Below are positions 48,490 through 63,525 of a stretch of DNA of 64,000 nucleotides, one piece after another. The position numbers and the translations under genes were made by a program. Under the pieces are notes generated by a model. That model searched no databases, was not told the DNA's origin, and saw nothing but the letters and a program-made list of their open reading frames with translations. The stretch comes from an uncultured Methanosarcinales archaeon. Lineage in GTDB: Archaea; Nanobdellota; Nanobdellia; Woesearchaeales; UBA583. Position 1 is the stretch's first letter, and each line of letters starts with the position of its first letter. Location of the stretch: contig CAYGPK010000003.1 of NCBI GenBank assembly GCA_964351975.1, forward strand, positions 24,738 to 88,737, written 5' to 3'.

Positions 48490-48514
48490 GTGAAGTCGCA
48501 GATTTGAAACTCTC
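48490..48514 (-). repeat. tRNA 3'-end-like fragment (GAGAG + UUUCAAAUCUGCG + ACUUCAC)
   Basis: CGCAGATTTGAA (48497-48508) repeats the T-loop/T-stem of tRNA-Ile (48616-48627), 119 nt away. Confidence 0.5.
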
Positions 48515-48607
48515 AAAATAGAATATTTTGAGTGTTAAGAAATTTTTAAAGTACTGATAAGAAGAAATTTCTGCTAATGCGGACTCGTCCGCAGTGAAAA
48601 TCAAGGA

Positions 48608-48682
48608 TGTTCCGCCGCAGATTTGAACTGCGGACCATTCGATTATCAGTCGAACATTCTAACCGGGCTGAACTAGCGGAAC
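48608..48682 (-). tRNA. tRNA-Ile (anticodon GAU)
   Basis: Hand-folded cloverleaf: acceptor GUUCCGC/GCGGAAC, anticodon arm UUCGA-CUGAUAA-UCGAA, T arm CGCAG-UUCAAAU-CUGCG. No CCA is encoded. Confidence 0.9.
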
Positions 48683-48702
48683 AATTAGGTTATGTAGATT
48701 GT

Positions 48703-48729
48703 AAAAAAGCCATTCTGAATTAATTCAGA
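48703..48729 (-). terminator. palindrome TCTGAATTAATTCAGA + U6 run after tRNA-Asn
   Basis: The minus strand reads UCUGAAUUAAUUCAGAAUGGCUUUUUU, 13 nt after the tRNA 3' end. Confidence 0.55.
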
Positions 48730-48741
48730 CATGCTCTTGAG

Positions 48742-48814
48742 CGCCTTATGCAGGACTCGAACCTGCGACCTTGCGGTTAACAGCCGCACGCTCTACCTGC
48801 TGAGCTAATAAGGC
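48742..48814 (-). tRNA. tRNA-Asn (anticodon GUU)
   Basis: Hand-folded: acceptor GCCUUAU/AUAAGGC, D stem GCUC/GAGC, anticodon arm UGCGG-CUGUUAA-CCGCA, T arm GCAGG-UUCGAGU-CCUGC. Confidence 0.92.
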
Positions 48815-62254: not shown

Positions 62255-63133
62255 ATGAAAAAAAAGTTTAGGTTTTTTATTTGGAATAAATATTTTAGTT
62301 TTATTGCAAGTTTTTTTTTGGTTTTTATTTTCATATGCTTTATTTTGTATGTTTTATTAGGTATTTTATTATATTTTAATACCGATAGGTTTTTGTATCA
62401 TCCTAATAATCAAGATTTCTTTTTATGTTCGCAGTTCGAGAATTTTACTAAAGAGAGTTTTAATGGGACAAGATTTTTTTACAAAGATATTGGATCTAAC
62501 ACAACTTTAGTTTATTATCATGGAAATGGTGGGACTGCTTGTGATAGAAGTTATTTAGCAGAGAGATTTGATAGACTTGAGGTTAATTTACTTTTTGTAG
62601 AGTTTAGTGGTTATGCTAATGATGTAAAAGAGCCTTCGAAAGAACTTTTGTTAAATGATGTTAGAAACATTGAGGGCTTTATAAATGTTGAAAATATTTC
62701 TAATGTTTCAGTTATAGGTGAGAGTTTAGGTACTGCACTTGCTAGTTATCATTCAACTATTAATGATAATGTTTATAGTTTGATTTTGGTTGCGCCATTT
62801 GATAGCGTTTATAATGTTGCAAGAAATAGGTATTTGAAGTATTATCCTATTGGTTTTTATACATTTGATAATTATGATAATATAAAGTATTTAGAGAATT
62901 ATTCTAAAAAATTAATTATTATTCATGGAAGTTCTGATATGAATATTCCTATTTTACATGCCGTTACTTTGTATGAGGCAGTTCCAACGAATGATAAAGT
63001 TTTTATTGAGTATAGAGGTGCAAGACATAATGATTTGTATAGATATTTTGATACTTACAGAGCTATAAGGGCGGGTGTTCAAAATGAATCACTTGAGGAG
63101 TTTAAATTTTATGAGTTTAGATTTAGTAGATAG
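62255..63133 (+). CDS. alpha/beta hydrolase with N-terminal TM
   Basis: Nucleophile elbow GESLGTA, then HGSSD and RHND. Confidence 0.65.
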   Translation: MKKKFRFFIWNKYFSFIASFFLVFIFICFILYVLLGILLYFNTDRFLYHPNNQDFFLCSQFENFTKESFNGTRFFYKDIGSNTTLVYYHGNGGTACDRSYLAERFDRLEVNLLFVEFSGYANDVKEPSKELLLNDVRNIEGFINVENISNVSVIGESLGTALASYHSTINDNVYSLILVAPFDSVYNVARNRYLKYYPIGFYTFDNYDNIKYLENYSKKLIIIHGSSDMNIPILHAVTLYEAVPTNDKVFIEYRGARHNDLYRYFDTYRAIRAGVQNESLEEFKFYEFRFSR

Positions 63134-63167: not shown

Positions 63168-63239
63168 GCTGCTGTAGCTCAGTGGTAGAGCGCGACATTG
63201 GTAATGTCGAGGCCCTGGGTTCAAATCCCAGCAGTAGCT
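63168..63239 (+). tRNA. tRNA-Thr (anticodon GGU)
   Basis: Hand-folded: acceptor GCUGCUG/CAGUAGC (one G-U pair), D stem GCUC/GAGC, anticodon arm CGACA-UUGGUAA-UGUCG, T arm CUGGG-UUCAAAU-CCCAG. Confidence 0.9.
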
Positions 63240-63350
63240 TTAAAGGATTTGAACTCTCTGAGTTTAACGAAGAGATACAAGAACGAACAACGTGAGTGTC
63301 TCGTATAAAGTTCCTTTGGCTTCCAAGAATCTTGAAAAGATTGTTGAGAG

Positions 63351-63370
63351 CAAATCCCAGCAGTAGCTTT
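63351..63370 (+). repeat. exact 20-nt second copy of the tRNA-Thr 3' end
   Basis: CAAATCCCAGCAGTAGCTTT occurs at 63222-63241 and again at 63351-63370. The second copy is preceded by GAGAG. Confidence 0.85.
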
Positions 63371-63525
63371 TGTTAATTCTAGATATTAGTTGATCTTTGG
63401 ACAAAGCCTTGATAGACCAATCAATTCTACAAAAATTATTTAATAAGTTACTTAGAATTTTGTGGATTTACTTAAAATTAATATTAAACAAATTTATAAA
63501 CAAAAAACAAAATAATTATATTAAT

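What the first reader, a model, noticed from the sequence alone, without database searches (positions are those of the whole stretch)
63168..63370. tRNA-Thr followed by an exact 20-nt duplicate of its 3' end, with an anti-T-loop segment in between
Seen: CAAATCCCAGCAGTAGCTTT (T-loop through discriminator +2) occurs at 63222-63241 inside the tRNA and again at 63351-63370. The 109-nt spacer begins with GGATTTGAAC (63245-63254), a perfect reverse complement of the tRNA T-loop GTTCAAATCC (63219-63228). GGATTTG-AA-CTCTC can also pair with GAGAG-CAAATCC of the second copy. The spacer contains further helices (GAGATAC/GTGTCTC, AAAGGA/TCCTTT, AATCTT/AAGATT). The tRNA-Ile locus shows the same layout: a second T-loop/3' copy about 120 nt downstream, also preceded by a hairpin and GAGAG. 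Established: duplicated tRNA 3' segments are the classic scars (attL/attR) of integrase-mediated insertion into tRNA genes. Archaea also have non-canonical tRNA gene organisations (split genes, introns outside the anticodon loop). Inference: either a miniature remnant or a novel small mobile insertion targeting the T-loop, or an unusual pre-tRNA with an alternative 3' exon or structured trailer. Recurrence at two loci argues against coincidence.
Basis: partly seen in the sequence, partly recalled or inferred. Interest (0 to 1): 0.65.

Follow-up and report, generated by a model that had tools for sequence, protein, structure and literature searches.

The report
Mini insertion elements behind archaeal tRNAs
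The repeated tRNA-Thr tail is real and marks a roughly 110-base, non-coding, hairpin-rich insertion that belongs to a family found behind many tRNA genes of tiny (DPANN) archaea, each time leaving the tRNA intact and a decaying spare copy of its tail downstream.

Summary
tRNA-Thr(GGT) lies at 63168-63239. Its last 20 nt recur exactly at 63351-63370, and an anti-T-loop 10-mer sits at 63245-63254. The layout is identical in three independent assemblies.

It is not an intron, a split tRNA or any Rfam family. The 111-nt spacer is one copy of a small non-coding element family, which I call type B. Both of its ends recur behind tRNA-Ser(GCT) in the same organism and behind tRNA-Ser in a relative. 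Each time they flank the resident tRNA's own 3' end.

tRNA-Ile carries a second family, type A. I also found type A behind tRNA-Met, Ser, His and Glu, with looser forms behind Leu and Arg, in about 16 metagenomic archaeal contigs.

Three features recur:
- an inverted T-arm piece in the spacer;
- a hairpin abutting the second copy;
- a T-run after the second copy.

Second copies are often mutated and distal ones more so. Element order differs between orthologous loci.

The best reading is footprints of miniature, site-specific, probably non-autonomous insertion elements that duplicate the T-loop-to-3' end. The enzyme is unknown; a casposase-like target duplication or a tyrosine-integrase att core are the candidates. 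No recombinase and no empty site was found.

The parts
63168..63239 (+). tRNA-Thr(GGT), complete and high-scoring. CCA is not encoded.
   Evidence: ARAGORN; Rfam RF00005 73.9 bits
63222..63241 (+). Direct repeat, copy 1. It runs from T-loop C56 through the discriminator plus TT and is part of the functional tRNA.
   Evidence: exact match, 0 expected
63240..63350 (+). Type B spacer/element: 111 nt, non-coding and hairpin-rich.
   Evidence: fold z = -2.75; no Rfam family; homologous ends at L177 tRNA-Ser (same organism) and at the L137 distal spacer
63240..63254 (+). Conserved left end TTAAAGGATTTGAAC, which contains the anti-T-loop 10-mer (63245-63254).
   Evidence: I9; left 16 nt against L177: score 10.5 versus 4.4+-1.0 in shuffles
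63272..63302 (+). Internal hairpin GAGATAC...GTGTCTC (one G-U pair). It lies in the variable middle, which is absent from the 72-nt copy behind tRNA-Ser.
63310..63350 (+). Conserved right end: GTTCCTTTGG..CCAAGAATCT..ATTGTTGAGAG. It includes the terminal hairpin CAAGAATCTT-GAA-AAGATTGTTG, which abuts copy 2.
   Evidence: 21.5 versus 7.3+-1.5; 16.5 versus 7.0+-1.5
63351..63370 (+). Direct repeat, copy 2. It has no T-stem 5' strand or acceptor 5' partner nearby and is not part of any predicted tRNA.
63368..63381 (+). T-run plus flank motif TTTTGTTAATTCTA. The same motif follows the tRNA-Ser copies in L137, and variants follow the distal copies in L005 and L138.
   Evidence: p = 2e-4
48608..48682 (-). 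tRNA-Ile(GAT)
48509..48607 (-). Type A spacer behind tRNA-Ile. In order it holds GATTTTCAC plus the complement of its own T-stem 5' strand (48582-48602), hairpin TGCGGAC-GA-GTCCGCA, AGAAATTTCT, and the terminal hairpin ACACTCAAAATA-TTC-TATTTTGAGAGT.
   Evidence: (I1, I4)
48497..48508 (-). Partial second copy of the tRNA-Ile T-loop plus T-stem 3' strand (12 nt), followed by ACTTCAC and TTTT.
   Evidence: (D4)
48741..48814 (-). tRNA-Asn(GTT), 57 nt upstream of tRNA-Ile. It has no second copy and serves as an internal contrast.

Best explanation
The 111 nt between the two repeats is one copy of a small, non-coding, hairpin-rich insertion element (type B). It sits in the 3'-distal part of the tRNA-Thr gene. 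tRNA-Ile carries a related second family (type A).

Insertion leaves the tRNA contiguous and functional on the left. On the right of the element it leaves a second, functionless copy of the segment from the T-loop to the discriminator, which then decays.

**Shown**
- The element's two ends are conserved, while its middle and the flanking tRNA-derived repeat change from locus to locus.
- The family is multi-copy in this genome.
- Element order differs between orthologous loci.
- Distal copies are more decayed than proximal ones.

**Inferred**
- The elements are, or were, mobile and non-autonomous, moved in trans by an enzyme that recognises the T-arm DNA.
- The repeat is most simply a target duplication from cuts in the T-loop (53/54 for type A, about 55/56 for type B) and just after the discriminator, as casposases do at tRNA 3' ends.
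- The alternative is an att core carried by a miniature integrase-dependent element.
- The T-loop-complementary left end may serve in target recognition or as a terminal inverted repeat together with the T-loop-like right junction.
For: **1. Same element, different tRNAs.**
- The window spacer against the spacer behind tRNA-Ser(GCT) of the same organism (L177; that aRF1 cluster, P0131, lists the same 156,385-bp longest contig and the same two samples as the window's hydrolase, P0001). Left end 10.5 versus 4.4+-1.0 in shuffles; right end 16.5 versus 7.0+-1.5.
- Against the distal spacer of L137, a syntenic relative: 33.5 versus 11.8+-2.1.
- The middle varies in length: 111, 72 and about 70 nt.

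**2. The order differs between orthologous loci.** L137 has A then B. L177 has B then A, and the whole block is inverted relative to its neighbours.

**3. Recurrence.**
- L005 tRNAi-Met has an exact 20-nt repeat 138 nt downstream.
- About 16 of 44 hits of a T-loop...T-loop pattern in metagenomes are true duplications of the tRNA 3' end.
- The same pattern gave only one chance hit in IMG/VR.

**4. Shared anatomy.**
- An inverted T-arm match of at least 9 nt occurs in 10 of 19 spacers, against 1 of 156 control tRNA trailers.
- A hairpin of at least 7 bp abuts the second copy in 12 of 18 cases, against 4% of shuffles.

**5. Decay with polarity.**
- Second copies carry 1-5 mismatches in about half the loci.
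- In L179 copy 2 is perfect and copy 3 is mutated.
- In L153 the distal unit has lost consensus motif residues.

**6. [quoted passage not shown] They form tandem arrays and leave gene-less solo-TIR remnants (PMC4779613).

**7. The same tRNAs are active integration sites.** L004 shows a classical junction at the anticodon stem of the tRNAi-Met that carries a type A unit.
Against: - No transposase, casposase or integrase was found in the 64-kb window, nor any obvious candidate by eye among ORFs next to 14 of the loci (those ORFs were not profile-searched).
- No autonomous relative and no attP-like junction was found in IMG/VR or in phage records.
- No empty orthologous site was recovered, so insertion polarity is inferred, not seen.
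- Repeat length is not constant: 12 nt at Ile, about 18-20 at Thr, 20 for type A, 33 at L137-B. That is awkward for a fixed-stagger target duplication.
- Clear terminal inverted repeats are lacking unless the T-loop copy is counted as part of the right end.
- Type A spacers carry an inverted copy of their own tRNA's T-stem 5' strand, which co-varies with that tRNA (L133/L155 versus L137 versus Ile). A freely hopping element does not obviously explain this.
- The motifs TCACT and CGTTCGG are kept between the tRNA-His loci L153 and L138 (same PGM-like gene upstream), which could mean a cis function rather than mobility.
- The metagenome survey was restricted to 100-130-nt spacings, so the size distribution is biased.
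Confidence: 0.55

Rival explanations
1. A functional, structured trailer or small RNA that belongs to the tRNA gene. It would be either co-transcribed or made from its own promoter (for example the TTTAAA box at the tRNA-Thr 3' end), and it would end at the T-run after the second copy. Its 5' part is complementary to the T-arm and its 3' tail is identical to the tRNA 3' end. That resembles a scaffold-plus-guide RNA, or a regulator or chaperone of tRNA maturation.
For: - The folds are hairpin-rich.
- A hairpin directly abuts a roughly 20-nt single-stranded tail followed by TTTT.
- Conserved motifs with differing hairpin sequences occur at the tRNA-His loci L153 and L138, which share the same upstream gene.
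- The proximal unit keeps the consensus residues while the distal one loses them.
- The anti-T-stem segment co-varies with each tRNA.
- For tRNA-Thr the sense strand folds better than the antisense strand (-27.1 versus -18.4 kcal/mol).
Against: - No Rfam family matches.
- I saw no C/D or H/ACA boxes when reading the spacers (by eye, not scanned).
- In most units the antisense strand folds as well or better, and the stems are perfect Watson-Crick palindromes with 3-nt loops.
- Second copies are mutated in about half the loci, in ways that break pairing with the tRNA.
- T-runs directly after many first copies should stop read-through.
- Two unrelated spacer families can sit behind the same tRNA in either order.
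Confidence: 0.17
2. These are ordinary attL/attR scars of large integrated viruses or plasmids (tyrosine integrase, T-loop sublocation). Their interiors were later deleted, so the small spacers are dead remnants that never moved as small units.
For: - The repeat starts in the T-loop and ends at the tRNA 3' end, as expected for integrases that cross over in the T-loop. This follows Williams 2002, recalled from my own knowledge; the T-loop att of phage Ms6 is in PMC1762012.
- L004/L005 show a real element junction and a RidA gene trapped between tRNAi-Met fragments.
- tRNA fragments left by 9-23-kb integrations are common in archaea (PMC9897764).
Against: - Independent random deletions should give a wide range of sizes. 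The three loci found without any size filter are 119, 129 and 138 nt.
- Both ends of the spacer are conserved between loci while only the middle varies.
- The same ends flank three different tRNA cores. That would need a separate large parent element, and a matching deletion, for each tRNA.
Confidence: 0.18
3. Local tandem duplication of the tRNA tail plus trailer, by replication slippage or unequal crossing-over between T-loop-like sequences. No foreign DNA is involved.
For: Tandem units do exist. L153 and L179 carry two near-identical units, L161 and L133 repeat up to the contig end, and L124 and L150 repeat part of the unit. L153 ends in a TTCAAA stub.
Against: - At tRNA-Thr, tRNAi-Met, L131, L125 and L152 only the 20 nt are repeated, not the trailer after them. 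One tandem duplication cannot give that.
- It does not explain the shared spacer ends at different tRNAs and in different genomes.
Confidence: 0.05
4. A non-canonical T-loop intron, an alternative 3' exon, or a split or permuted tRNA gene.
For: - Archaea do have introns at 59/60 and split tRNAs (from my own knowledge).
- Some junctions here fall at TTCAAA|TCC, which is position 59/60.
- The minimum-energy fold of the whole transcript uses the second copy for the acceptor stem.
Against: - The first copy already gives a complete 73.9-bit tRNA.
- A BHB motif at 59/60 needs TGAA before the 3' bulge. The second copy has TTCA, which is the same sequence, not its complement.
- tRNA-Thr lacks T54 and T55 in copy 2, and tRNA-Ile lacks a matching acceptor.
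- Many second copies are mutated.
- ARAGORN with introns allowed finds nothing extra.
Confidence: 0.02

Closest known systems
Casposon insertions and casposon-derived solo-TIRs at tRNA genes (Methanosarcina; Krupovic et al. 2016, PMC4779613)
   Same: Both insert in the 3'-distal part of a tRNA gene and leave it intact. Both have a long direct duplication of the target (14-35 bp there, about 18-20 bp here). Both reuse the same site to give tandem arrays separated by the shared repeat, and both leave gene-less remnants at the site.
   Different: No Cas1 or PolB gene and no full-length element was found. Terminal inverted repeats are not clear. The elements here are about 70-120 bp, and at least two families occur at many different tRNAs. 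I know of no casposon report from DPANN (own knowledge, not checked).
attL/attR of tyrosine-integrase elements in tRNA genes, T-loop sublocation (Williams 2002; phage Ms6, PMC1762012)
   Same: The direct repeat starts in the T-loop and runs to the tRNA 3' end. The upstream copy completes the gene, and successive events stack up downstream.
   Different: The DNA between the repeats is about 100 bp and carries no gene. The same flanks surround different tRNA cores. No integrase and no attP was found.
MITEs and other non-autonomous derivatives (cis-mobilisable elements of ICEs; PATEs of IS200/IS605)
   Same: Ends are conserved and the middle is variable or deleted. The elements are multi-copy within a genome, have no coding capacity, and are rich in hairpins.
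   Different: The flanking repeat is far longer than typical MITE target duplications. IS200/IS605 derivatives make no duplication at all. The elements here are strictly specific for tRNA T-arms.
Archaeal non-canonical tRNA introns (position 59/60) and split tRNAs
   Same: The position lies in the T-loop, and the host lineage is known for odd tRNA genes.
   Different: No BHB motif is possible. The gene is complete without splicing, and the second copy is often degenerate.

Membership tests
Tyrosine-integrase integrated element (attL/attR in a tRNA gene) | Direct repeat overlapping the tRNA 3' part, with the upstream copy completing the gene | tested here: met
Tyrosine-integrase integrated element (attL/attR in a tRNA gene) | Integrase gene and element genes between the repeats, or an integrase nearby | tested here: not met
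   The spacer is 111 nt and non-coding. No recombinase domain was found in the window ORFs. ORFs next to 14 other loci were only inspected by eye.
Tyrosine-integrase integrated element (attL/attR in a tRNA gene) | Matching attP on a free element, or an empty attB in relatives | tested here: inconclusive
   There are no hits in IMG/VR or phage records. The tRNA-Thr 3' end is absent from the GTDB and JGI collections, so no empty site could be examined.
Casposon or casposon-derived remnant | Target-site duplication of fixed length flanking the element at a tRNA 3'-distal site | tested here: inconclusive
   Repeats of 20 nt (type A) and about 18-20 nt (type B) fit this. The 12 nt at Ile and 33 nt at L137-B do not.
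Casposon or casposon-derived remnant | Terminal inverted repeats | tested here: inconclusive
   GGATTTG-AA-CTCTC pairs with GAGAG-CAAATCC only if the start of copy 2 is counted as the element end (I11). The picture is similar but weaker at L177.
Casposon or casposon-derived remnant | Cas1 casposase and PolB in a full-length relative | tested here: not met
   None was seen in the window or in any fetched locus.
MITE | Multi-copy, non-coding, with conserved ends and a variable interior | tested here: met
MITE | Short (2-10 bp) target duplication and clear terminal inverted repeats | tested here: not met
   The repeats are 12-33 nt and the ends are not clearly inverted.
IS200/IS605-derived PATE | Subterminal hairpins, no target duplication, and insertion 3' of a short fixed sequence | tested here: inconclusive
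   Hairpins lie near both ends and junctions fall at TTCAAA. A long direct repeat is present, however, and no TnpA or TnpB was found.
Archaeal BHB intron or alternative 3' exon | A bulge-helix-bulge motif at the two junctions, and a gene that is incomplete without splicing | tested here: not met
   The junction sequences are identical, not complementary (read directly). The tRNA is complete. ARAGORN run with introns allowed (-i) finds nothing further.
Split or permuted tRNA gene | No complete tRNA at the locus, with halves carrying complementary leader and trailer | tested here: not met
   A complete tRNA is present.
Any described RNA family (Rfam 15) | A covariance-model match in the spacer | tested here: not met

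The most novel reading that the evidence does not exclude
These are a previously undescribed class of miniature mobile elements specific for the T-arm of tRNA genes. They would recognise their target through an end complementary to the conserved T-loop. They would be inserted by an unknown, perhaps casposase-like, enzyme that cuts in the T-loop and just past the discriminator. The gene survives and an 18-20-bp duplicate is left behind. By converting the tRNA's attachment site into an occupied one, they might also shield these tiny genomes from larger integrating viruses and plasmids.
Probability: 0.25. Interest if true: 0.8.

Novelty: new variant of a known kind. Interest (0 to 1): 0.62.

Why it matters
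tRNA genes are the classic landing sites for integrating viruses, plasmids and casposons. What is normally seen is kilobases of foreign genes between the repeats. Here the inserted unit is about 100 bp, has conserved ends, comes in at least two families, and sat behind three of the four tRNAs I could examine in one DPANN genome.

If the units move as such, they are a new kind of site-specific miniature element. They would point to an unidentified recombinase that reads the T-arm in DNA.

They also matter in practice:
- They create tRNA-like fragments that confuse annotation.
- They may break assemblies: three contigs for one tRNA-His locus end just upstream of the tRNA.
- They mark hot spots of rearrangement. 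The tRNA-Ser block is inverted between two relatives.

If instead the spacers are functional RNAs, they would be a new tRNA-linked RNA class in organisms whose RNA processing is poorly known.

Tried and rejected
- **Known RNA families.** Rfam was run at gathering and permissive thresholds on the window loci and on five related loci. Only the tRNAs matched.
- **Guide sRNAs.** I read the spacers for C/D and H/ACA boxes and saw none; this was by eye, not a motif scan.
- **Intron or alternative exon.** A BHB motif was worked through by hand and rejected. A canonical T-arm BHB puts the intron at 59/60 and needs TGAA before the 3' bulge, but the second copy has TTCA.
- **attP-like junctions and spacer motifs in IMG/VR.** Six scans gave either no hit or only chance matches, mostly in coding sequence.
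- **Spacers against phage records.** No match.
- **Orthologous tRNA-Thr loci.** Searched by DNA in GTDB genomes and JGI metagenomes: zero hits.
- **Synteny routes.** The flanking hydrolase, the PGM-like gene and aRF1 gave no conserved tRNA neighbourhood. aRF1 did lead to L177 and L179.
- **Hef loci.** About 163 kb of Woesearchaeota/UBA583 DNA contained no tRNA at all by ARAGORN (139 kb of it also checked with Rfam), so it was useless for the survey.
- **RNAalifold on a MAFFT alignment of type A units.** No structure was returned, because the variable hairpins misalign. I did not build a covariance model.
- **Retroviral-type primer-binding site.** Rejected: the second copy is sense, and no TGG complementary to CCA is present.
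- **Fold-back or template-switch origin.** Rejected for tRNA-Thr: the spacer is not an inverted copy of local sequence.
- **BLAST between the window spacer and L137.** Not significant, because the similarity is in short blocks with indels. Anchored local alignment against shuffles was used instead.

Full report
**1.

ARAGORN and Rfam place a complete tRNA-Thr(GGT) at 63168-63239. The 20-mer CAAATCCCAGCAGTAGCTTT occurs at 63222-63241 and again at 63351-63370. It occurs nowhere else even with three mismatches, and none are expected by chance.

GGATTTGAAC at 63245-63254 is the exact reverse complement of the T-loop segment 63219-63228. The start of the spacer can also pair with GAGAG-CAAATCC at the start of the second copy.

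The same sequence is present in two independent Logan assemblies from two runs (L001 and L002). The window has about 27% GC. It encodes archaellins, Hef, aIF5A, TFE and Kae1. Its nearest named relatives are 'archaeon UBA583' and Woesearchaeota, so it is a DPANN archaeon.

**2. The tRNA-Ile locus is similar but not the same**

Only 12 nt are repeated, the T-loop plus the 3' strand of the T-stem. The next seven bases are not the Ile acceptor. The trailer does hold a 21-nt, 81% inverted copy of the tRNA's own T-arm. A hairpin plus TTGAGAG sits before the second T-loop, and a T-run follows it.

**3. Not a known RNA and not an intron**

Rfam finds only the tRNAs, even at permissive thresholds. The first copy already completes the tRNA.

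A canonical BHB motif built on the T-stem would place an intron at 59/60. It would need the four bases before the 3' bulge to be complementary to TTCA. In the second copy those bases are TTCA again, so the motif cannot form. This is read directly from the sequence.

**4. The layout recurs**

By chance, a contig from a relative (L005) showed initiator tRNA-Met with its last 20 nt repeated exactly 138 nt downstream. That copy too is preceded by a hairpin and followed by a T-run.

One metagenome scan for T-loop, then 100-130 nt, then a T-loop not preceded by G, then a T-run, returned 44 loci. In about 16 of them the match extends from the T-loop to the tRNA 3' end or beyond. The tRNAs involved are Ser, Glu, His, Asn, Arg, Leu and Pro. 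Most contigs have 22-46% GC and one pair has 65%.

The same pattern gave one chance hit in IMG/VR. Among about 300 tRNAs in viral contigs, comparable repeats to the 3' end were seen only where whole tRNA genes are tandemly duplicated.

Caveat: the scan fixed the spacing and the left boundary, so it cannot give an unbiased size distribution. The three loci found without that filter measure 119, 129 and 138 nt.

**5. Shared anatomy**

- An inverted copy of part of the tRNA's own T-arm lies in the spacer. Matches of at least 9 nt occur in 10 of 19 cases, against 1 of 156 control trailers.
- A hairpin abuts the second copy. Stems of at least 7 bp occur in 12 of 18 cases, against 4% of shuffled controls.
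- The AT-rich loci share a 'type A' pattern. In order it reads: (G)ATTTTCAC; often the complement of the T-stem 5' strand forming a first hairpin; in a subfamily TCACT, a bulged hairpin and CGTTCGG; then a terminal hairpin, often ending AGAGT; then the T-loop copy. The Ile trailer is a member.
- Stems are mostly perfect palindromes with 3-nt loops, and they fold equally well on both strands. The structures therefore do not identify an RNA strand.

**6. The tRNA-Thr spacer belongs to a second family, type B**

L137 is a contig from a relative. Its tRNA-Ser(GCT) sits beside aS21, cyclophilin and TYW1 genes. That tRNA is followed by a type A unit, a mutated copy, a second spacer and another copy.

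The second spacer shares several blocks with the window: GGATTTGA, CCTTTGG, CCAAGAATCT, GATTGTTGAG and the flank TTTTGTTAATTCTA. The anchored local alignment scores 33.5, against 11.8+-2.1 for shuffles.

An aRF1 search then identified contig L177. Its aRF1 protein cluster lists the same 156,385-bp longest contig, and the same two samples, as the window's hydrolase. L177 therefore comes from the window's own organism, and it carries the same aS21-cyclophilin-TYW1 neighbourhood.

Its tRNA-Ser(GCT) is followed by the following, in order:
- a 72-nt type B unit with the same left end (TTAAGATTTGAAC) and right end (GTTCCTTTTGG..CCAAGAAT..ATTGTTGAG) as the window spacer;
- a mutated copy of the Ser 3' end;
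- a type A start that matches this tRNA's own T-stem;
- a still more decayed copy.

Both ends match the window spacer with p below 2e-4.

So one element family flanks different tRNA 3' ends in one genome. Its ends are conserved and its middle varies. The order of types A and B is reversed between the two orthologous Ser loci. These are the marks of independent insertions, not of a fixed inherited module.

**7. The second copies look like relics**

About half carry 1-5 mismatches, often ones that would break the T-stem or acceptor stem. Where there are arrays, the distal copy is the most degenerate:
- L179 has a perfect copy followed by TTCAAATTCTTGTCTTGATGT.
- In L153 the distal unit has lost TCACT, CGTTCGG and a hairpin.
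- In L005 the third copy is interrupted.

This polarity fits repeated insertion next to the working gene, possibly with growth by unequal crossing-over.

**8. The same tRNAs are true integration targets**

L004 is otherwise identical to L005 around the hydrolase gene. It carries only the last 45 nt of tRNAi-Met (from the anticodon stem), preceded by unrelated DNA with a ribbon-helix-helix-like ORF (judged by eye). It then continues with the same type A unit and copy. In L005 a RidA gene lies between copies 2 and 3.

**9. Mechanism**

Two precedents give a duplicated tRNA 3' end.

- Tyrosine integrases carry the tRNA 3' part in attP, and some cross over in the T-loop.
- Casposases cut the target with a long stagger in the 3'-distal part of tRNA genes. 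This gives 14-35-bp duplications, tandem arrays and gene-less remnants (PMC4779613).

Because the same small element is found with three different tRNA tails, a duplication made from the target at each insertion is the more economical reading. The left junction lies right after the discriminator at both tRNA-Thr and L177 tRNA-Ser. The right junction lies in the T-loop.

The evidence does not settle the mechanism:
- Repeat lengths are not uniform.
- Clear inverted termini are missing.
- No enzyme and no full-length element was found.
- No empty site could be retrieved.

The co-variation of type A hairpin 1 with each tRNA's T-stem is unexplained. So is the conservation of motifs between the tRNA-His loci L153 and L138, which keeps a cis-acting or RNA function alive as a rival.

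**10. Verdict**

It is best filed as the footprint of miniature tRNA-T-arm-specific insertion elements. [quoted passage not shown] The enzyme and the mode of target copying remain open.

Noticed in passing
L004 1-1476 versus L005 656-1392: Two near-identical strains differ at tRNAi-Met. L004 has only the 3' 45 nt of the tRNA (from the anticodon stem), preceded by unrelated DNA with an RHH-like ORF that runs into the fragment. This looks like a classical integrated-element junction. In L005 a RidA gene lies between tRNA-fragment copies 2 and 3, and copy 3 is itself interrupted in the T-loop by about 50 nt.
   Followed up: partly
window 63368-63381; L137 746-760 and 866-880; L005 1380-1392; L138 about 652-668: The motif TTTT[G/C]T(T)AATTCT follows the most distal tRNA-tail copy at four loci with different tRNAs and in different genomes. 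It could be a native box downstream of tRNA genes or the end of a third, older element family. This is unresolved.
   Followed up: partly
L177 960-1314 versus L137 534-885: The tRNA-Ser(GCT) gene plus its trailing units is inverted relative to the conserved aS21-cyclophilin-TYW1 neighbours between two related organisms. L177 also contains an inverted copy of the type B right end (CTCAACAAT...ATTCTTGG) inside its distal unit.
   Followed up: no
L120 1086-2936: A 38%-GC contig carries a dense array of repeated tRNA-Ser(TGA) and tRNA-Asp genes and fragments with encoded CCA, at 230-525-nt spacings. This is a different, probably bacterial or phage, phenomenon picked up by the same pattern.
   Followed up: no
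L165, L166, L167 (position 1) versus L153: Three independent assemblies of the organism behind L153 all end about 215 nt upstream of the PGM-like gene. That is just before the tRNA-His that carries two tandem units, which suggests these arrays break short-read assemblies.
   Followed up: no
window 62255-63133: For the alpha/beta hydrolase just upstream of tRNA-Thr, the only homologues that carry a source name are from Patescibacteria (Vampirococcus, Doudnabacteria) at about 38-43% identity; closer ones (50-64%) are unnamed. This hints at gene exchange between DPANN archaea and CPR bacteria.
   Followed up: no
L010-L019: About 163 kb around the Hef genes of ten Woesearchaeota/UBA583/Nanoarchaeota/Aenigmarchaeum genomes contained no tRNA gene by ARAGORN, and seven of the loci (139 kb) also had none by Rfam.
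   Followed up: no
L147 / L148 (65% GC): A GC-rich contig, probably from a haloarchaeon judging only by its GC content, shows the same layout. tRNA-Ser(TGA) is followed by a 108-nt spacer with an anti-T-loop CTGGGATTTGA and a hairpin, then a 20-nt copy. The phenomenon is therefore not confined to DPANN.
   Followed up: no
window 48683-48740: tRNA-Asn is followed by a perfect hairpin (TCTGAATTAATTCAGA) and GGCTTTTTTAC before tRNA-Ile. The T-run-plus-AC resembles the TTTTCAC that opens type A units. That motif may therefore simply be the lineage's tRNA terminator.
   Followed up: partly
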